A DNA stretch of 64,000 nucleotides from Eledone cirrhosa (lineage: Eukaryota). Location of the stretch: the NCBI GenBank assembly GCA_964016885.1, contig OZ024740.1, forward strand, positions 275,838,001 to 275,902,000, in the 5' to 3' direction. Every line of letters begins with the position of its first letter. Within the stretch, counting starts at the first letter, position 1. This document shows, one piece after another, positions 763-60,797 of the stretch. The position numbers and the translations under genes were made by a program. The notes below the pieces were generated by a model. The model was not told the DNA's origin, made no database searches, and worked only from the letters and a program-made list of their open reading frames with translations.

Positions 763-1068
763 ATTTATAAAACCATAATTATTTTATTATATATATTTCA
801 AGGGCGACCAAGGTAAATTATGATGCGCTTTCATCAGATAAAATGCAGATTTATTTATAAAACAAATCTGTATTTTATCTGATGAAAGCACATCATAATT
901 TACCTTGGTTGCCCTTGAAATATATATAATAAAATATTATGGTTTTACAAATGTAGTTTCCATTTATTAATATATTGTATATTTACTCCACTTAACTGTT
1001 GAGTGCTTTATATCAGTTATAAACATTTTTAAGCTTGTTTAATCCCAACAAATTAAATATAACCTCTG
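763..1068 (+). mobile_element. Fold-back hammerhead cassette, family 1 (Penelope-like pLTR or retrozyme-like)
   Basis: Inverted arms ~763-853 and ~861-953; a hammerhead in each arm; unique tail with GAGTGCT at 1001-1007; ends in (TA)n. Confidence 0.75.
871..936 (+). ncRNA. Minimal type I hammerhead ribozyme
   Basis: tattttat-CTGATGA(879-885)-aag...ctt-GAAA(917-920)-tatata-TA-ataaaata; 8-bp stem I; mirror copy on the minus strand ~780-845. Confidence 0.85.
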
Positions 1069-1101
1069 CATATATATATATATATCTTTTTACAATATGA
1101 C

Positions 1102-1715: not shown

Positions 1716-2459
1716 AATGAAAAAGTGAGGTAGTTGGTGTGGGGTGGGGGGGAGAAAATAGATTATTACAGACTGTATTAGATTACTGGACATGTGTTTA
1801 CTGATGTATCTAAAGCACATGTTTGAATATAGTGTAGATTTATGGTTCAATCATTTTACCAGACTTCCAGAACAAGAAATTTGCCAATATTTATTAACTT
1901 GAATTTTCTGTACTTGTAAACAATAATAAAAATATTAGTAAAAACTTAATGAATAGTATGAAAATAAATGATGTTCATGAAATTACTTGATAGCAAAATA
2001 AATTTTTTTTCCAAAACTTTCTGAAGCTAAATTTTTGTAATGGCGAGCTATCACACCTCTCTTCTGTCCGCTGGGGCTGTGGGGTGGTAAGCATGTAGTC
2101 CCCCATTTGATGACAATAGTGAGAGATGGAGTGAGTGAGAGAGATGGAGGCAATGAAAGCGGGAGTTTGGTTCTTTTCTGTTCGATCCTGGTGTATATAA
2201 TGTGCTAAAATAAATGCACTGTCATTCAATCATGCTGATATTTCACAACCAGCAGATATATATGACTGGTATTTAAATATTTTATCTCTCAACCCGCTTC
2301 TAGAGACTGTGTAGTTGTTTTTTTGTTGTTTTTTTTAAATAGAATATTGTTCTACATTTTGGCATATAAAAGCATTATTTATAAAGCTGTATATTTAAAT
2401 CTAGAGAGGTTTCATGAACAAACTGATTTCAGTTTGATCTAAGGGAGTCACTTTAAATA

Positions 2460-2556
2460 ATCGTTTCCACGCAATTACCCAGTGCATTACTGGTACTTTA
2501 TTTTATCGACCCCATAAGGATGAAAGGCAAAGTTAACCTTTGCGGGATTTGAACGG
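2460..2556 (-). mobile_element. tRNA-derived SINE family A, partial
   Basis: ctggtactttattttatcgaccccataaggatgaaaggcaaagttaac core shared with the other copies. Confidence 0.8.
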
Positions 2557-2839
2557 AATCACTTTAAATAATGAATATGTATATGGATACTTTTTTTCAT
2601 AGTGGCATAGTTTGAAAGACTTTTTATATGGCTGGATAAACCTCCTTACACCAACCAGTACCTTATTTTAAAATATGGTGTATATAGCACAAATCTTCTT
2701 TACTAACTGCATTACTATGGGATGTAATTTTACACGGGACATAAACAAATGACTCTAGATGCATGAAAACGTTATCAGTAAGATGATGCATGCAGTAAAC
2801 TGATATGAACACACATATATATATAATCATCATTATCAA

Positions 2840-3110
2840 CATCATCATCACTGTTTAACGTCCATTTTCCATGTTAGCATGGGTTAGATGGGTTGTCCTA
2901 TTTTAGGCAAATCAAAGTCAGATGACCGTTTCTTGCTCATACAGAACTGCTTTTGGCTTGGTTTCTATGGCTGCATGCCCTTCCTATTGCCAATCACATT
3001 TACAGTGTGTACTGGGAGCTTTTTGTTGTGACACCTACATGACCACCTTCGAGTGTGGGCTGGGCGTTTTTTGTTGTGTTGCCATCATGATCACTTTACA
3101 GTGTGAGCTG
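2840..3110 (-). mobile_element. RTE-type 3' UTR / SINE tail fragment
   Basis: (CAT)n tail followed by gtttaacgtccattttccatgttagcatggg, matching the RTE 3' ends in this window. Confidence 0.65.
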
Positions 3111-3392
3111 TGGGCAGGATGTGTGGGGTGGAAATATGGGCATGTGTGAGGGGCAGAGTGTTAGGACATGGGTGGTGTGTGGAAGGAGAGATGAAGATGA
3201 AAGTAGTGCATACCAGATATATGCTTCAGCCTGTACTCATGGGAGGTGTATGGGAGAAAGTGGGGGTGAATACAGTTCTAGTCATATAGAAGCCATTTCT
3301 ATATAAAATAAAGATACCTATCCTCTACCAATGTATTGAGTACCCTTTTGAACTGTGGTTACCTCTCAGCGCATATCAAGAACATACCCATA

Positions 3393-3429
<37 letters not shown>

Positions 3430-3444
3430 GGGGGGGGGGGGGCA

Positions 3445-3660
3445 TATAGACAATATGCCCTCAGCCCCTTTCACTGCAAAGTGGTCGTAGAGGTGTCATG
3501 ACAAATAAGCACCCAGCCCACACTGTAAAGTGGTCGTGTAGGCGCCACAGAGAAAAAGCACCCACCACTCACTGTAAATAAGGTTGGTGTTAGGAAGGGA
3601 ATCCAGCTGTAGAAATCAAGCCAAAATCAGTTCCATTATCAGCAAGACAAAGTCATCCAA
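3445..3660 (+). mobile_element. SINE family B / RTE-tail fragment
   Basis: ggttggtgttaggaagggaatccagctgtagaaatcaagcc matches 22482-22523. Confidence 0.65.
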
Positions 3661-4344
3661 CCTAACATCGCCCACAACAGGATAGGTATCTTTATTTTAT
3701 TTAGAAATGGCTTCTATAGGACTTGAAATGTTTCATTCATATGAAATCAAAAGGCAACATATAAATTTAATCTGATTTTCTTGATGATTTTATACGAATG
3801 AATCAGTTCATTGGCATCTGTTTTAAACAATTCTGAATGGATGGTGATACCTATATTAATATTTTCTTGATAAATTACTTTATCATAGTCAAGCCCAAAC
3901 CAAAAATTCTTTCAGCCAGCCATGTGACTTGGTATAATGGCCTTACTTTCACATAGAAAGACATGAAAGAGCTCCAAACAAAATAGTAAAATAAAGTCAG
4001 GAGGAGGAATGAAATAAAGCTTATTGTTAGAAATAAAGCATAAGTAAGTTTTAAAAGACTATATTTGTTATATGATAGTCCTAACAAAAACGAAAACTTT
4101 TAATTGATTCTTGCCAATTCCGACCATCACTGAATCTCGTTGGAATCATGTGATTATAATCTTAGCTAGTAGGCACAAAATGGAAAACAAAACATACTAC
4201 TCCTATGCCATGTACATCCATCTCAACATCCATCCCTGCATCTCTCCCTCTCGGTGTTACATTTATCACCTTCACCACCACCACCTTTTCAGCTATTACT
4301 TAAACAATTGCTGGTGTCAATACTCCTTCCTATATTACCACGCT

Positions 4345-7300
4345 ACCAACACCAACATCACCACTATCACCAGCACCAACACCATCACCAGCACCAGCAC
4401 CAACATCACCACTATCACCAGCACCATCACCATCACCAGCACCAACACCAGCACCAGCACCAACACCAGCACCAGCACCAACACCAGCACCAGCACCATC
4501 ACCATCACCAACACCAACACCAACACCAACACCAACACCAGCACCAGCACCAGCACCAACACCAGCACCAGCACCAACACCAGCACCAGCACCAACACCA
4601 GCACCAGCACCATCACCATCACCAACACCAACACCAGCACCAGCACCAACACCATCACCAACACCAGCACCAGCACCAGCACTAACACCAACACCAGCAC
4701 CAGCACCATCACCACCATCAACACCAACACCAACACCAACATGACCACCATCACCAGCACCAACACCAACACCATCACCAGCACCAACACCAACACCATC
4801 ACCAGCAGCATCACCAGCACCAGCACCATCACCAGCACCAACACCAACACCATCACCAGCAGCATCACCAACACCAGCACCAACACCAGCACCAACACCA
4901 GCACCAGCACCAACACCAGCACCAACACCAGCACCAGCACTAGCACCAGCACCAGCATCAGCACCAACACCAGCACCAACACCAGCACCAGCACTAGCAC
5001 CAGCACCAGCACTAGCACCAGCACCAACACCAGCACCATCACCAACACCAACACCAACACCAGCACCAGCACCAGCACCATCACCAACACCAGCACCAAC
5101 ACCAGCACCATCACCAACACCAACACCAACACCAGCACCAACACCAACACCAACACCAACACCACCACCAGCACCAACACCAACACCAACACCAACACCA
5201 GCACCATCACCAACACCAACACCAACACCAGCACCATCACCAACACCAACACCAACACCAACACCACCACCAGCACCAACACCAACACCAACACCAACAC
5301 CAACACCAGCACCAACACCAGCACCATCACCAACACCAACACCAACACCAACACCAACACCAACACCAACACCAGCACCAACACCAGCACCATCACCAAC
5401 ACCAACAACAGCACCAGCACCAGCACCAGCACCAACACCAACACCAGCACCAACACCAGCACCACCACCAACACCAGCACCAACACCAACACCAACACCA
5501 GCACCAACACCAGCACCACCACCAACACCAGCACCAACACCAACACCAACACCAGCACCAACACCAGCACCACCACCAACACCAGCACCAACACGAACAT
5601 CAACACCAACACCAACACCAGCACCATCACCAACACCAACACCAACACCAACACCACCACCAGCACCAACACCAACACCAACACCAACACCAACACCAAC
5701 ACCAGCACCAACACCAGCACCATCACCAACACCAACACCAACACCAACACCACCATCAACACCACCACCAACACCAACACCAGCACCAACACCAGCACCA
5801 TCACCAACACCAACAACAGCACCAGCACCAGCACCAGCACCAACACCAACACCAGCACCAACACCAGCACCACCACCAACACCAGCACCAACACCAACAC
5901 CAACACCAGCACCAACACCAGCACCACCACCAACACCAGCACCAACACCAACACCAACACCAGCACCAACACCAGCACCACCACCAACACCAGCACCAAC
6001 ACGAACATCAACACCAACACCAACACCAGCACCATCACCAACACCAACACCAACACCAACACCACCACCAGCACCAACACCAACACCAACACCAACACCA
6101 ACACCAACACCAACACCAGCACCAACACCAGCACCATCACCAACACCAACACCAACACCACCATCAACACCACCACCAACACCAACACCAGCACCAACAC
6201 CAGCACCATCACCAACACCAACACCAACACCAGCACCATCACCAACACCAACACCAGCACCAACACCAGCACCATCACCAACACCAACACCAACACCAAC
6301 ACCAACACCAACACCAACACCAGCACCAACACCAGCACCATCACCAACACCAACACCAACACCAACACCAGCACCATCACCAACACCAACACCAACACCA
6401 TCACCAGCACCAGCACCAGCACCAACACCAACACCAACACCAACACCAGCACCAGCACCACCACCAGCACCAACACCAGCACCAGCACTAGCACCAGCAC
6501 CAGCATCAGCACCAACACCAGCACCAACACCAGCACCAGCACTAGCACCAGCACCAGCACTAGCACCAGCACCAACACCAGCACCATCACCAACACCAAC
6601 ACCAACACCAACACCAGCACCAACACCACCACCAGCACCAACACCAACACCAACACCAACACCAGCACCAACACCAACACCAGCACCAGCACCAGCACCA
6701 TCACCAACACCAGCACCAACACCAGCACCATCACCAACACCAACACCAACACCATCACCAACACCAACACCAACACCAACACCAACACCACCACCAGCAC
6801 CAACACCAACACCAACACCAACACCAACACCAACACCAACACCACCACCAACACCAGTACCATCACCAACACCAACACCAACACCAGCACCAGCACCAGC
6901 ACCATCACCAACACCAGCACCAGCACCAACACCAACACCAACACCAACACCACCACCAGCACCAACACCAACACCAACACCAACACCAGCACCATCACCA
7001 ACACCAACACCAGCACCAGCACCAACACCAACACCAACACCAGCACCAACACCAACACCAACACGAACACCAACACCAACACCAACACCAACACCAACAC
7101 CAATACCAACACCAACACCAACACCATCACCAGCACCAACACCAACACCAACACCATCACCAGCACCAACACCAACACCAACACCATCACCAACACCAAC
7201 ACCAACACCAACACGAACACCAACACCAACACCATCACCAGCACCAACACCAACACCAACACCATCACCAGCACCAACACCAACACCAACACGAACACCA

Positions 7301-10300
7301 ACACCATCACCAGCACCAACACCAACACCAACACCATCACCAGCACCAACACCAACACCAACACCATCACCAACACCATCACCAACACCAACACCAACAC
7401 CAACACCAACACCAGCACTAACACAGACACCAAAACCAACACCAACACCACCACCATCACTAACACCAGCACCAACACCAACACCAACACCAGCACCAAC
7501 ACCAGCACCAACACCACCACCATCACTAACACCAGCACCAACACCAACACCAACACCAGCACCAACACCATCACCAACACCAGCACCAACACCATCACCA
7601 TCACCAACACCAGCACCAACACCAGCACCACCACCATCACCATCACTAACACCAGCACCAACACCAACACCAGCACCAACACCAGCACCACCACCAACAC
7701 CATCACTAACACCAGCACCAACACCAACACCAGCACCAACACCAGCACCAACACCAACACCATCACTAACACCAACACCAACACCAACACCAGCACCAGC
7801 ACCAACACCAACACCACCACCACCACCAACACCATCACTAACACCAGCACCAACACCAACACCAGCACCGACACCAACACCATCACTAACACCAGCACCA
7901 ACACCAACACCAGCACCACCACCAACACCATCACTAACACCAGCACCAACACCAACACCAGCACCAGCACCACCACCAACACCAACACCAACACCAACAC
8001 CAGCACCAACACCAACACCAACACCAGCACCAACACCAACACCAGCACCGACACCAACACCAACACCAACACCATCACCAACACCAGCACCAACACCAAC
8101 ACCAACACCAACACCATCACTAACACCAGCACCAACACCAGCACTAGCACCAGCACCAGCATCAGCACCAACACCAGCACCAACACCAGCACCATCACCA
8201 ACACCAGCACCAACACCAACACCAACACCAACACCATCACTAACACCAACACCAACACCATCACTAACACCAGCACCAACACCAACACCAGCACCAACAC
8301 CAACACCAGCACCAGCACCAACACCAGCACCAGCACCAACACCATCACCAACACCATCACCAACACAGACACCAGCACCATCACCAACACCAACACCAAC
8401 ACCAACACCAACACCAACACCAGCACCAACACCATCACCAACACAGACACCATCACCAACACCAGCACCATCACCAGCATCAGCACCAACACCAGCACCA
8501 ACACCAACACCATCACCAACACCAACACCAGCACCAACACCAACACCAACACCAGCACCAGCACCAACACCAACACCAGCACCAGCACCATCACCAACAC
8601 AGACACCATCACCAACACCAGCACCATCACCAACACCAACACCAACACCAACACCAGCACCATAACCACCACCAACACCAGCACCAGCACCAACACCAAC
8701 ACCAACACCAACACCAACACCAACACCAACACCAGCACCAGCACCAACACCAACACCAGCACCAGCACCATCACCAACACAGACACCATCACCAACACCA
8801 GCACCATCACCAGCACCAACACCAACACCAACACCAGCACCATAACCACCACCAACACCAGCACCATCACCAACACCAGCACCAGCACCATCACCAACAC
8901 CAACACCAGCACCATCACCAACACCAACACCAACACCAGCACCAGCACCAACACCATCACCAACACCATCACCAACACAGACACCAGCACCATCACCAAC
9001 ACCAACACCAACACCAACACCAACACCAACACCAGCACCAACACCATCACCAACACAGACACCATCACCAACACCAGCACCATCACCAGCACCAACACCA
9101 ACACCAGCACCAGCACCATCACCAACACAGACACCATCACCAACACCAGCACCATCACCAGCACCAACACCAACACCAACACCAACACCAACACCAGCAC
9201 CATCACCAACACCAGCACCAGCACCATCACCAACACAGACACCATCACCAAAAACCAGCACCATCACCAGCACCAACACCAACACCACCACCAACACCAG
9301 CACCATCACCAACACCAACACCAGCACCACCAGCACGATCACCAACACCAGCACCATCACCAACACCAGCACCAGCACCATCACCAACACCAACACCATC
9401 ACCAACACCAGCACCAGCACCAACACCATCACCATCACCAACACCATCACCAGCACCAGCACCAACACCAGCACCAGCACCAACACCAACACCAGCACCA
9501 ACACCAACACCAGCACCAGCACCAACACCAACACCAGCACCAGCACCAGCACCAACACCAGCACCAACACCATCACCAACACCATCACCATCACCAGCAC
9601 CAGCACCAACACCATCACCATCACCAACACCATCACCAACACCAGCACCAGCACCAACACCAACACCAGCACCAGCACCAGCACCAACACCAGCACCAAC
9701 ACCATCACCATCACCAGCACCAGCACCAACACCAACACCATCACCATCACCAACACCAGCACCAACACCAACACCAACACCAGCACCAGCACCAACACCA
9801 ACACCAGCACCAACACCATCACCAACACCAGCACCAACACCATCACCAACACCATCACCATCACCAGCACCAGCACCAACACCAACACCATCACCATCAC
9901 CAACACCATCACCAACACCAGCACCAGCACCAACACCAACACCATCACCAGCACCAGCACCAACACCAACACCATCACCAACACCAGCACCAACACCAAC
10001 ACCAGCACCAACACCATCACCAACACGAACACCAACACCAACACCAACACCAACACCAGCACCAACACCAACACCAGCACCAACACCAACACCAACACCA
10101 ACACCATCACCATCATCAACACCAACACCAACACCAACACCAACACCAGCACCAACACCAACACCAACACCAGCACCAACACCAACACCAACACCAGCAC
10201 CAACACCAACACCAACACCATCACCATCACCAACACCAACACCAACACCAACACCATCACCATCACCAACACCAACACCAGCACCAACACCAACACCATC

Positions 10301-13300
10301 ACCAGCACCAGCACCAACACCAGCACCAACACCAACACCAGCACCAACACCATCACCAACACGAACACCAACACCAACACCAACACCAACACCAACACCA
10401 GCACCATCACCATCACCAACACCAACACCAACACCAGCCCCAACACCAACACAACCACCAACACCAACACCAACACCAGCACCAACACCAACACCAACAC
10501 CAGCACCAACACCAACACCATCACCAACACCAACACCAACACCAGCACCAACACCAACACCAGCACCAGCACCAACACCAACACCAGCACCAGCACCAAC
10601 ACCAACACCAGCACCAGCACCAACACCAACACCAACACCAGCCCCAACACCAACACAACCACCAACACCAACACCAACACCAGCACCAACACCAACACCA
10701 ACACCAGCACCAACACCAACACCATCACCAACACCAACACCAACACCAACACCAACACCAATACCAACACCAGCACCAGCACCAACACCAACACCAACAC
10801 CAACACCAACACCAGCACCAACACCAACACCAGCACCAACACCAACACCAGCACCAACACCAACACCAGCACCAACACCAACACCAACACCAACACCAAC
10901 ACCATCACCAACACCAACACCAACACCAATACCAACACCAGCACCAGCACCAACACCAGCACCAACACCAACACCATCACCATCACCAACACCAACACCA
11001 ACACCAATACCAACACCAGCACCAACACCAACAACAGCACCAACACCAACACCAGCACCAACACCAACACCAACACCAACACCAGCACCAACACCAACAC
11101 CAGCACCAACACCAACACCAACACCAACACCAATACCAACACCAGCACCAGCACCAACACCAACACCAGCACCAACACCAACACCAACACCAACACCAGC
11201 ACCAACACCAGCACCAACACCAACACCAGCATCAACACCAACACCAATACCAACACCAGCACCAGCACCAACACCAACACCAGCACCAACACCAACACCA
11301 GCACCAGCACCAACACCAACACCAGCACCAACACCAACACCAGCACCAACACCAACACCAACACCAACACCAACACCAGCACCAACACCAACACCAGCAC
11401 CAACACCAACACCAACACCAACACCAACACCAGCACCAGCACCAACACCAACACCAGCACCAACACCAGCACCAACACCAACACCAACACCAACACCAGC
11501 ACCAACACCAACACCAGCACCAACACCAACACCAGCACCAACACCAACACCAGCACCAACACCAACACCAACACCAACACCAACACCAGCACCAACACCA
11601 ACACCAACACCAGCACCAACACCATCACCAGCACCAGCACCAACACCAACACCAGCACCAACACCAACACCAGCACCAACACCAACACCAGCACCAACAC
11701 CAACACCAACACCAGCACCAACACCAGCACCAGCACCAACACCAACACCAGCACCAACACCAACACCAACACCAACACCAACACCAACACCAGCACCAAC
11801 ACCAACACCAACACCAACACCAGCACCAACACCAACACCAGCACCAACACCAACACCAGCACCAACACCAACACCAACACCAGCACCAACACCAGCACCA
11901 GCACCAGCACCAACACCAACACCAGCACCAACACCAACACCAACACCAGCACCAACACCAACACCAACACCAGCACCAACACCAATACCAACACCAGCAC
12001 CAACACCAACACCAGCACCAACACCAACACCAACACCAGCACCAACACCAACACCAGCACCAACACCAACACCAACACCAACACCAGCACCAACACCAAC
12101 ACCAACACCAACACCAGCACCAGCACCAACACCAACACCAGCACCAACACCAACACCAACACCAGCACCAGCACCAGCACCAACACCAGCACCAACACCA
12201 ACACCAGCACCAACACCAACACCAATACCAGCACCAACACCAATACCAACACCAGCACCAACACCAACACCAACACCAACACCAGCACCAGCACCAACAC
12301 CAACACCAGCACCAACACCAACACCAACACCAACACCAACACCAGCACCAGCACCAACACCAGCACCAACACCAACACCAGCACCAACACCAACACCAAT
12401 ACCAGCACCAACACCAATACCAACACCAACACCAACACCAGCACCAGCACCAACACCAACACCAGCACCAACACCAACACCAACACCAGCACCAGCACCA
12501 GCACCAACACCAGCACCAACACCAACACCAGCACCAACACCAACACCAATACCAGCACCAACACCAACACCAGCACCAACACCAACACCAACACCAGCAC
12601 CAACACCAATACCAACACCAGCACCAACACCAACACCAACACCAACACCAACACCAACACCATCACCAGCACCAACACCAACACCAACACCAGCACCAAC
12701 ACCAACACCAACACCAGCACCAACACCAGCACCAGCACCAGCACCAACACCAGCACCAACACCAACACCAGCACCAACACCAACACCAACACCAACACCA
12801 GCACCAGCACCAACACCAATACCAGCACCAACACCAACACCAACACCAGCACCAGCACCAGCACCAACACCAGCACCAACACCAACACCAACACCAACAC
12901 CAGCACCAGCACCAACACCAATACCAGCACCAACACCAACACCAACACCAGCACCAACACCAACACCAACACCAGCACCAACACCAACACCAACACCAAC
13001 ACCAGCACCAGCACCAACACCAATACCAGCACCAACACCAACACCAACACCAGCACCAGCACCAGCACCAACACCAGCACCAACACCAATACCAACACCA
13101 ACACCAACACCAATACCAACACCAGCACCAACACCAGCACCAACACCAGCACCAACACCATCACCAGCACCAGCACCAGCACCAGCACCAACACCATCAC
13201 CAGCACCAGCACCATCACCAGCACCAGCACCAACACCAGCACCAACACCAACACCATCACCAGCACCAACACCAACACCAACACCAGCACCAACATCAAC

Positions 13301-14348
13301 ACCAACACCAGCACCAGCACCAGCACCAACACCAGCACCAACACCAACACCAACACCAGCACCAACACCAACACCAGCACCAACACCAATACCAACACCA
13401 GCACCAACACCACCACCAACACCAACACCAACACCAGCACGAACACCAGCACCATCACCAACACCATCACCAACACCAGCACCAACACCAACACCAGCAC
13501 CAACACCAACACCAACACCAACACCATCACCATCACCAACACCAACACCAACACCATCACCATCACCATCACCAACACCATCACCAACACCAACACCAAC
13601 ACCAACACCATCACCATCACCAACACCAGCACCAACACCAACACCAACACCAACACCAACACCATCACCATCACCAACACCATCACCAACACCAACACCA
13701 ACACCAACACCAACACCATCACCATCACCAACACCAGCACCAACACCAACACCAACACCAGCACCAACACCAACACCAACACCATCACCAACACCAACAC
13801 CAGCACCAACACCACCACCAACACCAACACCAACACCAGCACCAACACCAACACCAGCACCAACACCAACACCAGCACCAACACCACCACCAACACCAAC
13901 ACCAACACCAGCACCAGCACCAACACCAGCACCAGCACCAACACCAGCACCAACACCAACACCAACACCAACACCAGCACCAGCACCAACACCAGCACCA
14001 GCACCAACACCAGCACCAACACCAACACCAACACCAACACCAGCACCAACACCAACACCAGCACCAACACCAACACCAACACCATCACCACCACCAACAC
14101 CAACACCAACACCAATACCAGCACCAGCACCAGCACCAGCACCAACACCAGCACCAACACTGCCAACACTAACACCAACACCACCACCACCAACACCACC
14201 ACCACCACCAACACCACCACCACCAACACCACCACCACCAACACCAACACCACAACCAACAACATCAACACCACCACCAACACCACCACCACCAACACCA
14301 CAACCAACAACACCAACACCACCACCAAGACCACCACCACCAACACCA
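4345..14348. repeat. ~10 kb degenerate hexamer satellite (ACC-AAC/AGC/ATC)n
   Basis: Continuous accaac/accagc/accatc units; one phase shift near 9251; internal higher-order duplications. Confidence 0.95.
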
Positions 14349-14965: not shown

Positions 14966-15340
14966 AGTACTTATATAACTAGGTCAGTAATCTTAGCAAC
15001 AACATCACTCTATCTGGACAGACAATAAACAACACCACTCTACTATGGATGCTATGGATCTAGACAAGTCACTATCACTGGACAAAGATCATGTCCTCGC
15101 TGGATTTCAGAGACGATTACTTTTCTTTGTTTTTACATTGCTTTTCGGGTTTTATTTTTATTTTTTTGCTGTTTTTTGTTGTTGTTGATTTTGTTTTCAT
15201 TCAATTTGGTGTTGCTGTTGTTGTTGTTGCTGTTGTTGTTGCTGTTCTTCTTTGTTTATATATATATATAGAGAGAGAGAGATTGTAAACTTAGCACTTT
15301 CCTGTAAACAAGTGCTATTATGCCTCATATTATGTTACCT

Positions 15341-15410
15341 TATTTTATCTGATGAGAACACAATTTCTGTCCCAGGATGAATTTGTATTCGAAATGTGCA
15401 TAATAAAATA
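15341..15410 (+). ncRNA. Minimal type I hammerhead ribozyme, family 1 variant without a fold-back arm
   Basis: tattttat-CTGATGA(15349-55)-gaacacaatt...aatttgtattc-GAAA(15391-94)-tgtgca-TA-ataaaata; GAGTGCT at 15478-84; (TA)n from 15539. Confidence 0.85.
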
Positions 15411-15557
15411 TATGGAACTCTTTTAACCATCTTTTAATTTCTTCTTTATCATATATACTCCAGTTCTACCAACTGTTGAGTGCTACTTATCTGATATATG
15501 CATAGTTTTATTGTTCTACAATATTATTCACCTTCTACATATATATATATATATGTA

Positions 15558-18854: not shown

Positions 18855-19355
18855 TGTGGATTGGCAGTATCGGTAGAGGGTCGGACGCCATGCTTTCCAG
18901 CATAGTTACGTCCCTTTACGGTCTGAGTTTATATCCCGCCGAGGTTAACTTTGCCTTTCATCCTTACGGGGTCGATAAAATAAAGTACCAATAATGCACT
19001 GGGTAATTGCTGGCCTTGTGCCAAAAGTAGAAACAATTATTATTTTCATTTTTATTATTATTATTATTATTATTATTACCCGCCGATAATATGCTTTGAA
19101 GCATAGAGTTACCTCCTTGTATGATCTGAGTTCAAATCCCGCTGAGGTTAACTTTGCCTTTCATCCTTCCGGGGGTCGATAGAATAAAGTACCAGTAATG
19201 CATTGGGTAATTGCTGGTCTTGTGCCAAAAGTAGAAACAATTAGTATTACCTGCCGATGTTAATTTTGCCTTTCATCCTTACGGGGTCGATAAAATAAAG
19301 TACCAGTAATGTACTGGGTAATTGCTGGCCTTGTGCCTAAAGTAGAAACAATTAT
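18855..19355 (+). mobile_element. Cluster of three SINE family A copies, head to tail, progressively truncated
   Basis: Copies at ~18855-19040, 19080-19245 and 19250-19355. Confidence 0.85.
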
Positions 19356-21164: not shown

Positions 21165-21470
21165 TTTGGCAGTATCGGTAGAGGGTCGGACGCCATGCTT
21201 TGACCCATAGAGTTACGGCCCTTGCCATTCTGAGTTCAAATCCCGCCGAGGTTAACTTTGCCTTTCATCCTTACGGGGTCGATAAAATAAAGTACCAGTA
21301 ATGCACTGGGTAATTGCTGGCCTTGTGCCAAAAGTAGAAACGACTATTAAACAGATTTCAAATCCCGTTGAGGTTAACTTTGCCTTTCATCCTTACGGGG
21401 TCGATAAAATAAAGTACCAGTAATGTATTGGGTAATTACTGGCCTTGTACCCAAAGTAGAAACAATTATT
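21165..21470 (+). mobile_element. SINE family A plus partial tandem duplicate
   Basis: 21165-21345 and 21357-21470; the sequence tattaaacag recurs at the boundaries. Confidence 0.85.
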
Positions 21471-21649
21471 AAACAGATTTTTTTATTTTTATATTCACTT
21501 ATCTCTGCCTATCTTGTTTGTTTTTTTATTTCTCAACTGTATGCCTTACTAGTTCGTTACGGATGTTTAAATTGATTAAATGAATACATAATAGGGTAAA
21601 AACAACCTTTCGTCATCAATGACAATGAGATTTACACTTAGAAAGTTCT

Positions 21650-35581: not shown

Positions 35582-35974
35582 ATTTAAGTTAAAAATGTAC
35601 ATCTACATATGCATACTGAAATACTAGTGTGTATATGAATACACACACGTATACATATGTAGGTGTACCAAGTCTTTCACTGGTCGCTTTACAGTGAGCG
35701 ACCCAGCTATTCTGTATGTAAACACACAGACAAACCGGTTTTTAGAGTCATACTGGTTTTGGGGGGAACACCTTCCCCCTATTCTCCAGAAAGCCAGACA
35801 AGGAATATTGAACTAGTTTCGTTGTTGTTACAACTCATCAGCAATATTTACCTATCTACAGGCCTTTCTGGAGAATTGTAAAAGCACATATCGTTATATG
35901 CTTTTTCTATGAAAATTAGTAGTGGGCAGACTAATTTGCATAGAGTGTGAGTACGCACCGGTTCAGCGGAGACG

Positions 35975-44419: not shown

Positions 44420-47400
44420 GAAGAATTGAATAGAACTGTTATGCAATGCTACCTGAAAAGTAACCCCAAGGAGAGGGGCTACAGGAGACGGATGCATAAC
44501 ATCTGGAACGAGATTGGTTTATTTAAATTAGATGAACAAAAATTGGCCGGGCAGGCTCGGGTAATAAGAACTAATGGGTGGATAAGCGAGCTGGAACTGG
44601 AGGAACTGAGCAGAGAGAATGGCTTGGAGATGGCGGGTGTAGTATGCCAGACAAGCGAGCCGGCGGGAAATGAAGGTGAGGAGGTCCTGAGAATGGAGGA
44701 ACCACCCGAAGCAGACAATGATCTGAATACTGAGATAAATAATACCTGGAACAGAGATACGGCCACTGAGGAGATGAATGCTGACGGGCTAGGACAAGAT
44801 TCGGTTGACATCCTAAATTTAGTGGTAGATGAGTTGAACAATGATAGTGGGAGACCTATGAACCTAAGATTTGTAGACAGGAAAAAGTTAAAAGAAACAA
44901 CAGCTAAGGTAAACAAAGTCATCCCATACCTTGAGGCGAGGAGTCTTCACCAGTGCAACAATATCCTCAAAGCAACAGCAAATACGGTGAGGAAACTACT
45001 TGGTATAAAAGCGAGAGGAAACAACAGACAAGAAAGAGCAGAGCCGTGGTGGAAGAAGCGACTGAGTGGGCAAATCGGGGAAATGAGAAATGACATAGGA
45101 AAGCTTGAGTCACTACTGAATGGGACACTAAAAAACATAGGCACTAAAAATAGACTGGAAATAAAATACAAAACTAGGAGTAAAAAGCTAAATATTATCA
45201 TAGAGGAATTGAAGCAACGCATTGTAGCAAAGAGTGCCAAAATCAGGCGATACGAGAACAGAGTCAGTCAGTATAAACAGAACCGCATGTTCGACAACAA
45301 CCAGAAGATGCTGTTTGGACAGCTTGAGGGGAAAGAAAGAGGCAACGACTTGATCCCTGGGGCGGAACAAGCTAAAACATTCTGGAGAGGAATATGGGAG
45401 CAGGATGTTAGACACAATGCCCAGGCAGGGTGGATTGAGACAGTACAGAGGGAGATCGGTGAGCAGGCACAGCAACAGACTGATTTGAGTATCACAGTTG
45501 AAACTCTTAAGGGGCAAGCCAAAAAACTAACCAACTGGAAATCACCAGGCCCAGATGGTGTGCAGGGGTATTGGATTAAACATTTAACATCCCTCCACCC
45601 GAAGCTGACGGCCATGTTCAATGACTGCTTGGTGTCGGGTGAGGTGCCAGAGTGGTTGACAAAAGGTACCACAGTTCTGATAATGAAAGACCGAATCAAG
45701 GGTAATGATGTTACCAACTATAGACCTATCACATGTCTGCCCGTAATGTGGAAACTGTTGACGAGCATTGTGTCTGAGGAAATCTACCATCACCTCCACA
45801 CAAACAACTTGTTGCCGGACGAACAGAAAGGATGCCGAAAGAAGTCACGTGGTACAAAGGACCAGTTGCTTATTGATAAGATGGTAATGGGGAATTGCAG
45901 GAGGAGACACACTGATCTTGCCATGGGATGGATAGACTACAGAAAGGCATTTGACATGGTGCCTCATTCCTGGATCACCAAAAGCCTGGAGATCTTCAGG
46001 GTGGCAGATAACATCAGACAGTTGCTGGGCAGGAGTATGGGGTCCTGGGAGACAGAGTTGACATCAACTGGAGTATCCTTGGGAAGCGTGAAGATCAAGA
46101 GAGGTATCTTCCAGGGAGATAGCCTGTCCCCTCTGTTGTTTGTCCTTGCCCTGATGCCCTTGACCATTATGCTGCGAAAAGTGAGAGCAGGATACAAGTT
46201 GGACGATCTTAAGCTCTTCGGGAAAAGTGAGAAGGAGTTGGATGTGCTTGTTGACACTGTCCGTATTTTCAGCAGTGATATATGTATGCAGTTTGGTATT
46301 GGTAAATGTGGAGTCATTGTGATGAGGAGGGGTAGGTTGAGCAGAAGTAACGGGATCCAGATACCAACAGGTGAGATGATAAAGGAAATTGACTCTGAGG
46401 AAGGATACAAGTATTTGGGCGTTCTGGAGGCTGATGGCATAAAGAACAAAAAAATGAAGGAATTGTTAAGAACTGAATACATTCGGAGAGTAAGGAGCGT
46501 ATTGAAGTCACATCTGAACAGCAGAAATGCCATAAGCGCAGTAAATTCCCGAGCTGTGTCTATTATTAGGTACAGTGCGGGAATTCTGAGATGGAATGTT
46601 GCTGAACAAAAAGAAAAGGATAGGAAGACTAGGAAGCTATTGACTATCTACAACATGTTCCACAAGAGGAGTGATGTCGATAGACTCTACCTAAGGAGAT
46701 CTGAGGGTGGAAGAGGTCTTATCAGCATAGAGGACTGTGTTCAGATGGAGAAAAACAACCTATACAAATACGTGACCTATAGTAAGGAGCCAATGCTCAG
46801 AGCTGTACTGAAGGAGGGGACAGTAGGCCAGGGGATATCCAAGGAGGAAATAACATCAAGGAGGAAGAGCAGCCTTAAGGGAAAATCCCTTCATAGTACC
46901 TTCTTTGAGAAAACTGAATTTAGAGATCCACAGACATGGAACTGGTTGAGAAGAGGAGACCTCAAAAAGGCTACAGAAGGAATGCTAATGGCTGCGCAGG
47001 AGCAGGCCCTCAAAACGAAGTGGTTGAAGCACCATATCTACAAGGAGGAGGCTAGCCCACTGTGCAGGATCTGTGGAGAGAGAGAGGAGACTGTGGCTCA
47101 CATTGTGTCCGAGTGTAAACACCTAGCCCAGACCCACTATAAGGGCTGGAGACACGATGTGATGGGCAGGGTGATCCACTGGCACCTGTGCAAAGTAAAC
47201 AATCTACCACATTCTGAGAAATGGTATGAGCATAGGCCAGAGGCGGTGATGGAGAACAGTCAGGTGAAGGTGCTGTGGGATTTTAGGATACAGACGGACA
47301 AAAAACTGGAACACAATAGACCTGACCTGGTGGTTGTGGACAAAGAAAAAAGATCGTGCCTGATTGTGGATGTGGCCTGCCCGTTCGACACGAGAGTGCA

Positions 47401-47710
47401 AGAGAAGGAGAGGGAGAAAATTAACCGATACTAGGACCTAAAGTGGGAGGTGAAAAGGATTTGGAACTGCCATGAAGTCAAAGTGATCCCGATTGTCATA
47501 GGCGCACTGGGGACTATCTCCAAAGGTTTCCAGAGATGGTTAAAGAAAATCGGCCCCTTCACGCTTTTTGGAACGCTTCAAAAGGCATGCTTGCTTGGAA
47601 CGGCAAGAACCCTCCGATACGTCCTGAATATCTGAGGCTGCAGGTAGTGGCTTGATATTCAATCCAACGGACTTTCCAGTTAACCAACATCAATGACTGA
47701 GATTCAAGGA
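44420..47710 (+). mobile_element. R4/Dong-clade non-LTR retrotransposon (RT plus restriction-like endonuclease) in (TAA)n
   Basis: (TAA)n-type tracts at 44364-44410 and 47709-47757; single ORF; short 3' UTR. Confidence 0.9.
44426..47635 (+). pseudogene. Disabled RT-RLE polyprotein
   Basis: RT motifs KSPGPDG, NYRPITCL, IDYRKAFDMV, GIFQGDSLSP, YKYLG; CCHC CRIC..ETVAHIVSEC; RHD; NRPDLVV..D..P..K. In-frame TAG at 47432-34; the YMDD region is reduced to LDD. Confidence 0.9.
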
Positions 47711-48378: not shown

Positions 48379-48421
48379 GTCACTGAAGAGGTCACAGAAT
48401 GTGTGACGAAAGAACTTTGAC
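48379..48421 (+). ncRNA. Minimal hammerhead-like motif
   Basis: gtca-CTGAAGA-g-gtcaca gaatg tgtgac-GAAA-gaac-TT-tgac. Confidence 0.7.
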
Positions 48422-49785: not shown

Positions 49786-51111
49786 GGGTTGGTCAAGCTG
49801 TCAATACCTGCCAGGACCTTCCATACGTATATCACTGCAAACCTCTTCTGCCTTCATTCCAAGGAGTAGAGTTTTAGTTCTTTTGCCTCTGCCAGTAGCT
49901 CATCTCCTTCATCATGGCAATCCTCTTGGTGTAGCTTTGTTGGATTACTTCAAGACCTGTGGTTAATATATTCCAAGCCATTCAATTGAAATATCAATTT
50001 ACCATTGATATTTCAATTGAAGGTCTGGGAATAAACATTTAAAAATTAGGAAAATGTTCTTACAAAAATGTTATGATGAACAGGGCAGTTTATAATACAA
50101 AGGTTGTGTATTATATGCTGCAAAATACAGTAGGTCTGAAATTGCTTCTCTTGTAAGTTCATTGCACAGAATAAGAGGCTGTGAATAGCTAAGAGACATG
50201 ATTCTTTTATTGTTAGCCAAACATCAATAAATTGAGGGTGAAATGTTGCACTTTTGTAAAGTTTTATCTTCACATTTACTATTAATGGATAGCAATAAAA
50301 CAAAAATATGCCAAACAAAAACATTCAGACTGAAAAAAAAAATATATAATTTTTCTTGATTCTTTGTATGTAAATCTTCTTAGTGCTATTGTTTGGAAAT
50401 TTGATTGTGTTAGTGATCATAACAAATATTATATCCATATTTCTTATGAAATTGTATCCTTGTTCAACCATGCTGGACCTGTGAATGACATTTGCAATCC
50501 AGTGAATTTTCACACAAATTTCCATCTACTGAATTTCACTCACAAGGCTTAGACTGATCCATGGCTATGGTAGAAGACACTTGTCAAAGATGCCACACAG
50601 TAAGATCGAAATTTGGACCTTGTGATTATGAACGGAACTTTTTAACCACTGCACCCATGATAAGAAATAAGTACTATCATTGTTCATTATGACTGAAAAA
50701 AAAGATGGAGAAAAATTTACATATACAGCCTTGTTACATATGGTGTCATATTGAGTCTACTCGTTTGATTAATAGAATAATCTGCTCATAAAATTAACAT
50801 GTAAGTAGTTGATCATTCCACAGACATGTTTACCCATAATGTAACTCTAAGGAAGATTAGTGTGACACTGTGTATGACAAGGTTAACCCCTTATACTATA
50901 TTTACTGTTCATTCAACTGGCTTTCAAACAATTTCCATCTATCCAATTCCTCTCACAAGGCATGGGTCAACCTGACACTATGGTAAAAGACTCTTCCCCA
51001 AGGTGTTATGCAATAAAATTGAACCTGGTATGTAATGATTGTGAAATAAACCTCTTAACCATTCAACCATACTGCAAATTTTTACAGAAGTTCTAAATAA
51101 CAATTATATAA

Positions 51112-51512
51112 TTGTTTCTATTTTTGGCACAAAGCCAACAATTATCCTAGTGCATTACTGGTACTTTATTTTATCGACCCCGTAAGGATGAAAGGCAAAG
51201 TTAACCTCAGCAGGATTTGAACTCAGACCGTAAAGGGACGTAACTCTATGCTGCAAAGCATGACATCCAAGCCTCAACTGATACCGCCAATCCACCTGCC
51301 ATTATTATATAACAATTATATAATTATTTCTACTTTTGGCACAAGGCCAGCAATTATCCCAGTGTATTACTGGTACTTTATTTTATCGACCCCGTAAGGA
51401 TGAAAGGCAAAGTTAACCTTGGCGGGATTTGAACTCAGACCATAAAGGGCCGTAACTCTTTGCTGCAAAGCATGGCATCCAACCCTCTACTGATACTGCC
51501 AATCCACCACCC
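51112..51512 (-). mobile_element. Two tandem SINE family A copies
   Basis: 51112-51300 and 51324-51512; ataacaattatataat is repeated before, between and after them. Confidence 0.85.
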
Positions 51513-55559: not shown

Positions 55560-55599
<40 letters not shown>

Positions 55600-56036
55600 A
55601 CCAAAGATTAATATGGTTCATTGATTACTCAATGAATATAGTTTTACAATAGATTAAAAGCACCCTACAATGAAGTTTTCTGGAGTTATTAATATTATTC
55701 AAAATATTAATAAATGAAGACATTCACATAATCAAATTATATGTTTCATTATATATATTTTGGAGGTACTGTACTGTTTTTTCAGTACGTCCTCGTCAGA
55801 TAAAATACATGAATTGCATGAATTGATGTATGACATACCTCAACTGTCTTGATAGTTCAATTCCAGTCTTGACAGTCTCTGCCAATACTGGAATTGAACC
55901 ATCAAGACAGTTGAGGTATGTCATACATCAATTCATGTATTTTATCTGATGAGGACGTACTGAAAAAACAGCACAGTACCTCCAAAATATATATAATAAA
56001 CATATATTTTGATTATGATCATTTACTAATATTTTG

Positions 56037-56039
<3 letters not shown>
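55600..56039 (-). mobile_element. Fold-back hammerhead cassette, family 1
   Basis: Arms ~55697-55875 and ~55879-56039; tattttat-CTGATGA(55946-52)-gga..tcc-AAAA-tatata-TA-ataaa; minus-strand tail with GGGTGCT at 55659-65; (TA)n on both sides. Confidence 0.8.

Positions 56040-56076
<37 letters not shown>

Positions 56077-60313: not shown

Positions 60314-60797
<484 letters not shown>

What the first reader, a model, noticed from the sequence alone, without database searches (positions are those of the whole stretch)
763..1068. Family 1 hammerheads: invariant stem I and core, freely varying stem II
Four loci (871, 15341, 55938, 60618) keep tattttat-CTGATGA...GAAA-t(ATAT/GTGC)a-TA-ataaa. Their stem II sequences differ yet still pair (aag/ctt, gaacacaatt/aatttgtattc, gga-gtactg/cagtac-tcc, gag-taccaa/ttggta-ctt). 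This covariation is direct evidence of selection on RNA structure. The self-complementary stem III suggests cleavage as a dimer, as is known for minimal hammerheads.
Basis: partly seen in the sequence, partly recalled or inferred. Interest (0 to 1): 0.75.

Follow-up and report, generated by a model that had tools for sequence, protein, structure and literature searches.

The report
Penelope-type hammerhead motifs in retroelement relics
The window holds seven, not four, copies of a small hammerhead (self-cutting RNA) motif that belong to a very abundant non-coding jumping element of an already described type; the motif is predicted, not shown, to cut, and likely only when two copies pair.

Summary
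The motif is real and far beyond chance. TTTTATCTGATGA occurs 7 times in the window against 0.11 expected. A tighter pattern occurs 15,473 times in the 3.0-Gb genome, and its reversed control 0 times.

Three of the four loci are head-to-head inverted pairs. The 55938 pair has lost the catalytic G12 (GAAA has become AAAA).

Stem II covaries: 9 of 10 pairs change on both sides, and 0 of 500 shuffles reach the observed score. It is not "freely varying", because a C·C mismatch at its fourth position is kept in 83 of 92 copies.

The motif lies about 50 or 145 nt from the 3' end of a non-coding element. That element is 5'-truncated, sits in (TA)n, and often forms snap-back inverted pairs. This matches the published signature of Penelope-like elements and their dimer-type minimal hammerheads (PMC4209133, PMC8557442, PMC11167929).

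I found no coding partner, and cleavage is untested. Verdict: a new member of a known kind. Other windows of this genome were read the same way earlier in this scan.

The parts
763..856 (-). Locus 1, inverted (left) arm of the two-armed insertion
   Evidence: 94% identical to the reverse complement of 860-952; arms meet in a snap-back centre with a 3-nt loop
780..845 (-). Hammerhead motif copy on the minus strand. Stem I begins C instead of U; stem II is decayed. Predicted A17 = 788.
860..1069 (+). Locus 1, right arm (long 3' form) ending at (AT)8 1070-1085
   Evidence: 137 nt from motif end to the TA tract
871..936 (+). Hammerhead motif: stem I 871-878/929-936, core 879-885 and 917-920, stem III 920-927. 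Predicted cut after A17 = 928.
15283..15541 (+). Locus 2, solitary 5'-truncated copy flanked by (TA)n(GA)n on the left and (TA)n on the right
15341..15410 (+). Hammerhead motif with a long stem II and stem III UGUGCA. Predicted cut after 15402.
55600..55868 (-). Locus 3, left arm (long 3' form, 145 nt from motif to the (TA)n at about 55570-55599)
55742..55807 (-). Hammerhead motif copy with CTGACGA and G12 to A (predicted inactive)
55887..56043 (+). Locus 3, right arm (short 3' form, 39 nt from motif to (TA)n)
55938..56003 (+). Hammerhead motif copy with G12 to A (..ccAAAAtat..), predicted inactive
60404..60544 (-). Locus 4, left arm (short 3' form, runs into (TA)n 60328-60413)
60453..60513 (-). 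Hammerhead motif copy with the best-preserved stem II in the window (z = -2.86). Predicted A17 = 60461.
60548..60757 (+). Locus 4, right arm; homology to genomic copies stops near 60757, before the family's usual 3' end
60618..60678 (+). Hammerhead motif. Predicted cut after A17 = 60670.

Best explanation
The four loci hold seven relic copies of a minimal type I hammerhead motif that sits near the 3' end of a non-coding retroelement with at least 15,000 motif-intact copies and the insertion signature of Penelope-like elements (PLEs). The motif likely cuts the element's own RNA after A17, but only when its weak palindromic stem III is completed by a second sense copy or helped by the element's protein partner.

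Shown here:
- The motif, its copy number, and the covariation of stem II.
- The absence of subfamily-level change in stems I and III and the core.
- The element's anatomy: 5' truncation, two discrete 3' ends in (TA)n, and snap-back head-to-head pairs made in one event.
- The absence of coding capacity.

Inferred:
- A PLE reverse transcriptase/GIY-YIG endonuclease copies the element in trans.
- The ribozyme is active.
- Selection acts on the few source copies rather than on the thousands of insertions. The window copies are therefore mostly dead relics: one pair has lost G12, one pair has a decayed stem II, and three loci are inverted pairs whose read-through RNA would fold into a hairpin rather than a hammerhead.
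For: Motif and abundance:
- Searches give 15,473 genomic matches against 0 for the reversed pattern.

Structure:
- Of 92 distinct copies from the first 37.5 Mb of contig 1, stem II pairs 1-3, 5-7 and 9 are standard pairs in 86-97% of copies.
- Alternative pair types occur at single positions: A-U 54 / G-C 30, G-C 42 / A-U 41, U-A 56 / C-G 29, C-G 43 / U-A 33.
- On alignment A3 (95 rows, 81 distinct), 9 of the 10 stem II pairs change on both sides, and the covariation score is 0.229 against 0.145 +/- 0.007 (0 of 500 shuffles).
- All four combinations of the states at pairs 18-49 and 21-46 occur, so at least one of those pairs changed more than once.

Constraint at source level:
- In 30 copies picked by BLAST rather than by motif, differences shared by 2 or more copies occupy 0 of 1,050 cells in stem I, core and stem III, against 129 of 3,060 cells in the flanking 102 columns.
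- Private differences are 0.86% against 1.96% per cell (Fisher p = 0.017).

Retroelement anatomy:
- Copies are 5'-truncated, with a long non-coding form of about 1.7 kb. That form has 44 stops in 567 codons.
- 22 of 27 copies have (TA)6+ within 330 nt downstream, against 30 of 81 background windows. The distances cluster at about 45-55 nt and about 140-147 nt.
- Among the 100 listed places there are 11 head-to-head pairs, 1 same-strand pair and 0 tail-to-tail pairs, and both arms of every pair belong to the same stem II subfamily.
- 8 of 27 primary copies have an inverted partner, and several partners are 5'-truncated past the hammerhead.
- About 12 of 16 pair centres are near-perfect palindromes with 3-11 nt loops.

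Genome context:
- There are 10,595 first-look GIY-YIG candidates.
- ORFs with RT plus C-terminal GIY-YIG exist. They carry their own minimal hammerhead about 390 nt after the stop codon and end in (TA)n.

Literature:
- Minimal hammerheads in PLE repeats, dimer design, opposite-strand pairs 100-700 bp apart, and families full of covariation (PMC4209133, main text parts 1-2 read).
- 5' truncation, an adjacent inverted 5'-truncated copy, the hammerhead near the 3' end, and (TA)n bias (PMC8557442, passages).
- Two RT start sites that define a 'tail', extension of both DNA strands, and a protein-assisted hammerhead (PMC11167929, passages).
Against: - No coding partner was linked to this family. None of 30 + 8 GIY-YIG loci carries this hammerhead downstream.
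- tblastn with 8 PLE ORFs found nothing at E <= 1e-5 in 244 kb of family loci plus the window.
- blastx of the long form gave a best E of 0.19.
- No Rfam hammerhead model matches. There were 0 matches at gathering score in the window, and none of the 27 matches or 49 matches at E <= 10 was a hammerhead family.
- Energy models do not favour the fold. The hammerhead monomer fold is -6.6 against an MFE of -11.0 kcal/mol for the best window copy, and z-scores for 4 of 6 window copies lie between -1.5 and +0.33.
- The 10.1-11.1 pair is mostly A-U or G·U. It is G-C in only 4 of 92 copies, whereas PMC4209133 lists G10.1-C11.1 as highly conserved.
- That paper also reports an unpaired base after A9, which is absent here.
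- Published minimal PLE hammerheads cut poorly in vitro (PMC4209133), and cleavage was not needed for insertion of the anole element in vitro (PMC11167929).
- The covariation counts are inflated by shared descent of copies; the number of independent events is small (my estimate is about 6-8).
Confidence: 0.8

Rival explanations
1. The motif keeps the hammerhead shape but is not kept for self-cleavage. It would serve as a structured RNA handle, for instance a binding or folding platform for the reverse transcriptase/endonuclease that copies the element, or it would simply ride along with the element.
For: Published minimal PLE hammerheads cut poorly (PMC4209133). The anole PLE hammerhead needs the protein, and its mutation does not affect insertion in vitro (PMC11167929). 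Craig et al. raise the idea that hammerheads 'simply parasitize PLEs' (PMC8557442). In this family G10.1-C11.1 is mostly replaced by A-U or G·U, and a C·C mismatch is conserved in stem II, which suggests a constraint other than plain helix stability.
Against: All catalytic core letters plus A15.1-U16.1 and a non-G residue at 17 are kept across subfamilies that differ elsewhere: 0 shared differences in 1,050 cells and invariant blocks in A1/A2. A mere protein handle would not need exactly the hammerhead core.
Confidence: 0.15
2. The family is an animal non-LTR retrozyme. Tandem copies would be transcribed, cut by the hammerheads, circularised, and the circular RNA copied back into DNA.
For: It is a short non-coding element with a dimer-type type I hammerhead. 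Same-strand neighbours exist: two copies 206 nt apart on contig 1 and two copies 306 nt apart in L072. [quoted passage not shown]
Against: Tandem arrangement, which defines retrozymes, is rare here: 1 same-strand pair against 11 head-to-head pairs among 100 listed places. Tandem Repeats Finder lists no array at any of the four loci. Most copies are solitary or inverted and 5'-truncated. No RNA data were available.
Confidence: 0.12
3. The loci are foldback or MITE-type DNA transposons whose terminal inverted repeats happen to contain the motif.
For: Three of the four window loci are inverted repeats. Rfam's hairpin (miRNA) models score on them below threshold.
Against: Many copies are solitary single arms with variable 5' ends. 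The distance between arms varies from 17 to 423 nt, with the palindrome running to the centre. The outer ends are unequal, long plus short, in 13 of 13 resolved pairs. The ends lie in (TA)n rather than in defined termini with target duplications. The only strongly conserved block is the hammerhead itself.
Confidence: 0.03

Closest known systems
Minimal / palindromic-helix-III type I hammerheads in the repeats of metazoan Penelope-like elements (Cervera & de la Pena 2014, PMC4209133; main text read, supplements not seen)
   Same: Type I topology, a long helix II, and a tiny palindromic helix III that can be completed only by a second copy. Thousands of dispersed copies per genome fall into consensus families with compensatory changes. 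Pairs occur on opposite strands 100-700 bp apart, and most copies are truncated relics.
   Different: No unpaired base between A9 and 10.1. The 10.1-11.1 pair is mostly A-U or G·U rather than G-C (G-C in 4 of 92). Helix I is 8 bp rather than 4-5. A conserved C·C mismatch lies at the fourth pair of helix II. No PLE ORF was found attached to this family.
Penelope-like elements with C-terminal GIY-YIG (Penelope/Poseidon, Neptune, Hydra clades; Craig et al. 2021, PMC8557442, passages; Poseidon of Anolis, PMC11167929, passages)
   Same: 5' truncation, an adjacent inverted 5'-truncated copy, a hammerhead near the 3' end, insertion into AT-rich or (TA)n DNA, and two alternative 3' ends ('tail'). An A/C-rich stem-loop lies near the 3' end (aatttgttg..caacaaatt).
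   Different: The element is non-coding (about 0.33 kb, long form about 1.7 kb). The stretch between the two 3' ends is about 95 nt, against a published tail of 30-40 bp. In pairs the two ends are strictly one long and one short (13 of 13), whereas the anole study saw no strand difference in RT start site.
Animal non-LTR retrozymes (Cervera & de la Pena 2020, PMC7229834: search listing and start of abstract only; Li, Clavereau & Pollet 2026 preprint, part 1 of 5 read)
   Same: A small non-autonomous element carrying a type I dimer-type hammerhead, proposed to depend on PLEs.
   Different: Retrozymes are defined by tandem arrays and circular RNAs. This family is mostly solitary or head-to-head inverted, and no RNA evidence was available.
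Dimeric hammerheads of newt satellite 2 and Schistosoma repeats (as cited in PMC4209133; details recalled, not checked)
   Same: A short helix III, with activity through pairing of two adjacent motifs.
   Different: Those have a 4-bp helix II with loop-loop contacts and lie in tandem repeats.

Membership tests
Hammerhead ribozyme, type I | Conserved core C3 U4 G5 A6 N7 G8 A9 ... G12 A13 A14, A15.1-U16.1, and a non-G residue at 17 | tested here: met
   5 of 7 window copies have it complete. Both arms of the 55938 locus have G12 to A. There are 15,473 genomic matches to a pattern that includes the core.
Hammerhead ribozyme, type I | Three helices around the core, supported by compensatory change | tested here: met
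   Helix II: 9 of 10 pairs change on both sides, and 0 of 500 shuffles reach the score. Helix I (8 bp) and helix III never vary here, and the search pattern fixed most of their columns, so they say nothing either way. Helix III is only 2 bp within one copy.
Hammerhead ribozyme, type I | Site-specific self-cleavage 3' of residue 17 | not testable with these tools
   No RNA run is listed for this sequence; no bench assay was possible.
Hammerhead ribozyme, type I | G10.1-C11.1 closing pair of helix II (highly conserved in natural hammerheads per PMC4209133) | tested here: not met
   A-U 46, G·U 38 and G-C 4 of 92 copies.
Rfam hammerhead families (covariance models) | Score at or above the family's gathering threshold | tested here: not met
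   0 matches at gathering score in the window. No hammerhead family appears among the 27 matches or the 49 matches at E <= 10, even on 8 loci with intact motifs.
Penelope-like element (autonomous) | Single ORF with reverse transcriptase and GIY-YIG endonuclease | tested here: not met
   The long form has 44 stops in 567 codons. blastx best E is 0.19. tblastn of 8 PLE ORFs against 244 kb of family loci plus the window gave no hit at E <= 1e-5.
PLE-type insertion (autonomous or mobilised in trans) | 5' truncation plus an adjacent inverted 5'-truncated copy (head-to-head) | tested here: met
PLE-type insertion (autonomous or mobilised in trans) | Hammerhead near the 3' end; AT-rich or (TA)n target; optional 'tail' at one end | tested here: met
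   22 of 27 copies against 30 of 81 background windows have (TA)6+ downstream, at two discrete distances. Arms are long plus short in 13 of 13 resolved pairs. The tail is about 95 nt, longer than the published 30-40 bp.
Animal non-LTR retrozyme | Tandem repeats, each unit with a hammerhead; unit-length circular RNA | tested here: not met
   There is 1 same-strand pair among 100 listed places. No tandem array lies at the four loci. Circular RNA is not testable.
MITE / foldback DNA transposon | Fixed terminal inverted repeats with target-site duplication | tested here: not met
   Arm lengths vary, solitary arms exist, and outer ends are unequal. Target duplications cannot be read inside (TA)n.

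The most novel reading that the evidence does not exclude
This family is a distinct hammerhead design. Its long helix II carries an invariant C·C mismatch exactly where loop II sits in canonical hammerheads, four pairs from the core. That mismatch would act as the tertiary or protein docking site that makes the ribozyme switchable.

The strict long-plus-short, snap-back architecture of the pairs would mean that each PLE-type insertion copies its own first cDNA back on itself and uses two start or stop points about 95 nt apart, one per arm. That would be a readable in vivo record of a step in PLE integration that is still unresolved.
Probability: 0.2. Interest if true: 0.5.

Novelty: new member of a known kind. 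Interest (0 to 1): 0.3.

Why it matters
This is mainly an annotation result. A repeat family with at least 15,000 motif-intact copies carries a ribozyme motif that Rfam models do not detect, so such genomes are under-annotated for self-cleaving RNAs.

The family offers a large natural data set of source-level selection on a hammerhead. Helix II is rebuilt repeatedly, while the core and helices I and III stay untouched.

Its two-armed insertions also record how Penelope-type enzymes finish integration (snap-back centre, two discrete 3' ends). The published in vitro work leaves that step open.

It does not change what is known about hammerheads or PLEs in kind.

Tried and rejected
- **Rfam.** No match at gathering score. 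At E <= 10 there was only sub-threshold miRNA-hairpin and other noise caused by the palindromes and TA repeats.
- **RNA evidence.** No RNA holder is listed for window 60430-60760. The three holders are Logan contigs of unknown kind from one study. I did not lay them, since contigs cannot show RNA ends.
- **Thermodynamic folding.** I folded six window copies and a cofolded dimer. The result is inconclusive, because the all-A/U stems allow alternative pairings and the self-complementary helix II dominates the dimer fold.
- **Search for a coding partner.** I scanned the top 30 GIY-YIG loci and 8 loci with long open frames for the family's motif. I also ran blastx/blastn of the long form against 8 PLE ORFs and their 3' regions (output cut; only (TA)n matched) and tblastn of the PLE ORFs on all family loci. 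None linked the family to an ORF.
- **Chance motif.** Rejected.
- **MITE/foldback.** Rejected (see the rival explanations).
- **The window's own RT ORF (44426-47434) as partner.** It has RVT_1 plus zf-RVT and no similarity to the PLE ORFs.
- **The two arms of a pair forming the active dimer.** Rejected, because they are on opposite strands.
- **Earlier findings by sequence.** The look-up returned nothing.

Full report
**1. What is in the sequence**

Each has tattttat, CTGATGA, a variable hairpin, GAAA, a 7-nt A/U-rich or UGUGCAU stretch, an A, and ataaaata.

A scan for TTTTATCTGATGA with up to one mismatch finds seven copies, not four. Four are on the plus strand (873, 15343, 55940, 60620). 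Three are on the minus strand (843, 55805, 60511). The mean in 100 dinucleotide-preserving shuffles is 0.11, and no shuffle reached seven.

Three of the four loci are therefore head-to-head inverted pairs. The given interval 763-1068 is one complete two-armed insertion: left arm 763-856 on the minus strand, right arm 860-1069 on the plus strand, ending at an (AT)8 tract.

Both arms of the 55938 locus read AAAA where the core needs GAAA (G12 to A), and the minus arm has CTGACGA. The two copies at 871 and 837 have a decayed stem II.

**2. The fold**

Numbered as a type I hammerhead, the parts are as follows.
- Stem I is 8 bp (UAUUUUAU/AUAAAAUA).
- The core is CUGAUGA...GAAA.
- Residue 17 is A.
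- Stem III (A-UAUAUA-U) gives only two pairs within one copy, but eight pairs between two copies.

Rfam's models do not see the motif. Nothing reached gathering score in the window. No hammerhead family appears among 27 matches at E <= 10 around locus 1, nor among 49 matches on eight loci with intact motifs.

Energy models are not decisive. The hammerhead fold of the best window copy costs -6.6 kcal/mol against an MFE of -11.0. Only two of six window copies fold clearly better than shuffles.

**3. The family in the genome**

The window lies in a 3.0-Gb assembly. The pattern TTTTATCTGATGAN{18,50}GAAATRTRYATAATAAA occurs 7,780 + 7,693 times, and its reversed control 0 + 0 times.

I fetched the first 100 places, a sample chosen by position and not by score. 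After removing duplicates I had 92 distinct copies.

**4. Covariation**

Counting stem II pairs inward from the core:
- Pairs 1-3, 5-7 and 9 are standard pairs in 86-97% of the 92 copies.
- Alternative pair types occur at single positions: pair 2 A-U 54 / G-C 30; pair 3 G-C 42 / A-U 41; pair 6 U-A 56 / C-G 29; pair 9 C-G 43 / U-A 33.
- Position 4 is C·C in 83 of 92 copies, and a standard pair in only 1%.

On alignment A3 (95 rows, 81 distinct), the count of structure pairs gives the following:
- 9 of the 10 stem II pairs change on both sides.
- 139 cells changed on both sides, against 68.1 +/- 9.9 in shuffles (0 of 500 reached it).
- The covariation score is 0.229 against 0.145 +/- 0.007 (0 of 500).
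- 89.5% of cells are paired, against 36-54% when the 3' partner is slid by 1-3 columns.

Caveats:
- Copies share descent, so cells are not events.
- The search pattern fixed most columns of stems I and III, so only stem II is informative.
- One abundant subfamily has a bulged base that misregisters pairs 8-11.

Reading the subfamilies, I count roughly 6-8 independent double changes. All four combinations of the states at pairs 18-49 and 21-46 occur, so at least one of those pairs changed more than once.

"Freely varying" does not hold, because the C at position 4, the C·C mismatch and a G(U/C)AC helix are kept.

**5. Where selection acts**

I took 30 copies picked by BLAST with a 154-nt query rather than by motif.
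- Differences shared by two or more copies fill 0 of 1,050 cells in stem I, core and stem III. They fill 129 of 3,060 cells in the other 102 shared columns.
- Private differences are 0.86% against 1.96% per cell (odds ratio 0.43, p = 0.017).

A first, cruder count gave 0.9% against 10.5%. It included flanks that not all copies share, so I do not rely on it.

Across subfamilies that are otherwise hard to align, the hammerhead block is the main invariant stretch.

I read this as selection on the source copies, that is, within the transposition cycle. It is not evidence that the thousands of insertions are functional. The smaller private-difference deficit may come from unresolved subfamilies or from how the copies were picked.

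**6. The element**

Copies share about 60 nt upstream of the hammerhead and 50 or 145 nt downstream. Many are 5'-truncated.

Four of the 30 BLAST-picked loci extend about 1.4 kb further upstream to a common 5' end, giving a long form of about 1.7 kb. That form is non-coding, with 44 stops in 567 codons and a best blastx E of 0.19 against PLE ORFs.

The 3' end abuts (TA)n. 22 of 27 copies have (TA)6+ within 330 nt downstream, against 30 of 81 background windows. The distances cluster at 38-64 nt (13 copies) and 139-147 nt (7 copies).

**7. The pairs**

Among the 100 listed places there are 11 head-to-head pairs (22 copies), one same-strand pair 206 nt apart, and no tail-to-tail pair. In all 11 pairs both arms have the same stem II subfamily, and several share rare variants. 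The shared G12-to-A change in both arms of the window's 55938 locus fits the same picture.

In 27 loci of 3 kb, 8 primary copies have an inverted partner, and several partners are truncated past the hammerhead.

About 12 of 16 pair centres fold as near-perfect palindromes with 3-11 nt loops, while the distance between the motifs ranges from 17 to 154 nt.

The outer ends are unequal. One arm reaches (TA)n after 39-57 nt. The other reaches it after 133-149 nt in 12 pairs and after 102 nt in one. This holds in 13 of 13 pairs where both ends could be read.

So a pair is made in one event, with one arm copied from the other. It is not two separate insertions, and it is not a fixed composite.

For the finding itself, this means the neighbour in three of the four window loci is antisense. 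It cannot serve as the dimer partner.

**8. Comparison with what is known**

Cervera and de la Pena (PMC4209133; main text parts 1-2 read, supplements not seen) describe:
- minimal type I hammerheads in the repeats of PLEs, in thousands of mostly solitary copies per metazoan genome;
- families "full of covariations", a long helix II, and a palindromic helix III read as a dimer design;
- pairs on opposite strands 100-700 bp apart, and low cleavage in vitro.

Craig et al. (PMC8557442, passages) describe 5' truncation, an adjacent inverted 5'-truncated copy, hammerheads near the 3' end, a one-sided 30-40 bp tail, and microsatellite bias including (TA)n.

The anole Poseidon study (PMC11167929, passages) reports:
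- cleavage of AT-rich DNA and extension of both strands;
- two RT start sites in an AC-rich stem-loop that define the tail;
- a protein-assisted hammerhead that is not needed for insertion in vitro.

This genome is rich in such elements. It has 10,595 first-look GIY-YIG candidates. ORFs with RT plus C-terminal GIY-YIG exist, followed about 390 nt later by their own minimal hammerhead and ending in (TA)n.

The family studied here has the same insertion anatomy but no ORF. I could not link it to any of the 38 PLE loci inspected. It is best filed as a non-autonomous element of PLE type. It comes close to the animal retrozymes, which a 2026 preprint derives from PLEs (part 1 of 5 read). It lacks their defining tandem arrangement.

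**9. Differences from the published minimal hammerheads**

- There is no unpaired base after A9.
- The 10.1-11.1 pair is A-U or G·U in 84 of 92 copies, and G-C in 4.
- Stem I is 8 bp.
- A C·C mismatch is conserved in helix II.
- The tail is about 95 nt.
- The pairs show a strict long/short rule.

I did not search the literature for these particular features, so I make no claim that they are unreported. The supplementary figures of PMC4209133, which I could not see, show many more families and may include similar designs.

**10. Mechanism, with what is shown and what is inferred**

Shown:
- the motif and its constraint at source level;
- the non-coding retroelement anatomy;
- the one-event snap-back pairs.

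Inferred:
- A PLE enzyme nicks (TA)n and primes reverse transcription near the element's 3' hairpin.
- That enzyme often copies the nascent cDNA back on itself.
- The hammerhead cuts the element's RNA after A17 when a second sense copy or the protein completes helix III. This would trim read-through or multimeric transcripts.

The published data leave the role of cleavage open, and so does this work.

**11. Verdict**

The thing is a new family of an already described class. Earlier follow-ups of this scan reached the same reading on other windows of this genome. I formed mine before seeing them and re-tested the points I use.

Noticed in passing
window 55600-56043 and 60404-60757; loci L080, L112, L122, L129, L132, L133, L141, L152, L026, L010, L024, L009: Head-to-head pairs always combine one arm with a short 3' end (39-57 nt from motif to (TA)n) and one with a long 3' end (133-149 nt in 12 pairs, 102 nt in one). 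This holds in 13 of 13 resolved pairs. The centres are near-perfect snap-back palindromes of variable length. This suggests one insertion event with two start or stop points about 95 nt apart.
   Followed up: partly
L002, L005 and other long-form copies, about 25-50 nt before the 3' (TA)n; window about 1030-1056: A small stem-loop (aatttgttg-aataac-caacaaatt) lies just before the long 3' end. A diverged subfamily has ttcgttga/tcaacgaa, a compensatory change. It recalls the AC-rich stem-loop where the anole PLE starts reverse transcription.
   Followed up: partly
window 48383-48411 (+): A different hammerhead-like motif, CTGAAGA-ggtcaca-gaat-gtgtgac-GAAA, with a 4-bp stem I (gtca/tgac). The same motif recurs in loci L043 and L153 near PLE sequences.
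   Followed up: no
window 35817-35841 (-): A compact minimal hammerhead candidate: aatattg-CTGATGA-gttgt-aaca-acaac-GAAA-ctag-t-t-caatatt. It has a 7-bp stem I and a palindromic CTAG stem III, and belongs to a family other than the one studied.
   Followed up: no
window 44426-47434 (+): A 1002-aa open frame with reverse transcriptase (RVT_1, E = 1e-19) and a weak zf-RVT match. It has no similarity to the genome's PLE ORFs and is probably a LINE-type element.
   Followed up: partly
window 4345-14339: A 10-kb array of the hexamer ACCAAC (about 88% matches), open in several frames for that reason only.
   Followed up: no
window 19147-19354, 21235-21480, 51097-51508; also about 100 nt in many fetched loci: A very abundant short repeat (..GGGGTCGATAAAATAAAGTACCAG..) occurs in tandem or inverted partial copies. 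It looks like a SINE and is unrelated to the hammerhead family.
   Followed up: no
L156, L157, L160 (own genome): Autonomous-looking PLEs (RT plus GIY-YIG) carry their own minimal hammerhead, gaac-CTGAAGA-t-tgc-gaaa-gca-t-GAAA-gtac-t-t-gttc, about 390 nt after the stop codon. They end in (TA)n about 170 nt later.
   Followed up: partly
L158 (own genome) 1850-4865: Two 551-aa PLE open frames lie head-to-head and overlap, one on each strand. This is an inverted duplication of a coding PLE, the large-scale version of the two-armed insertions.
   Followed up: no
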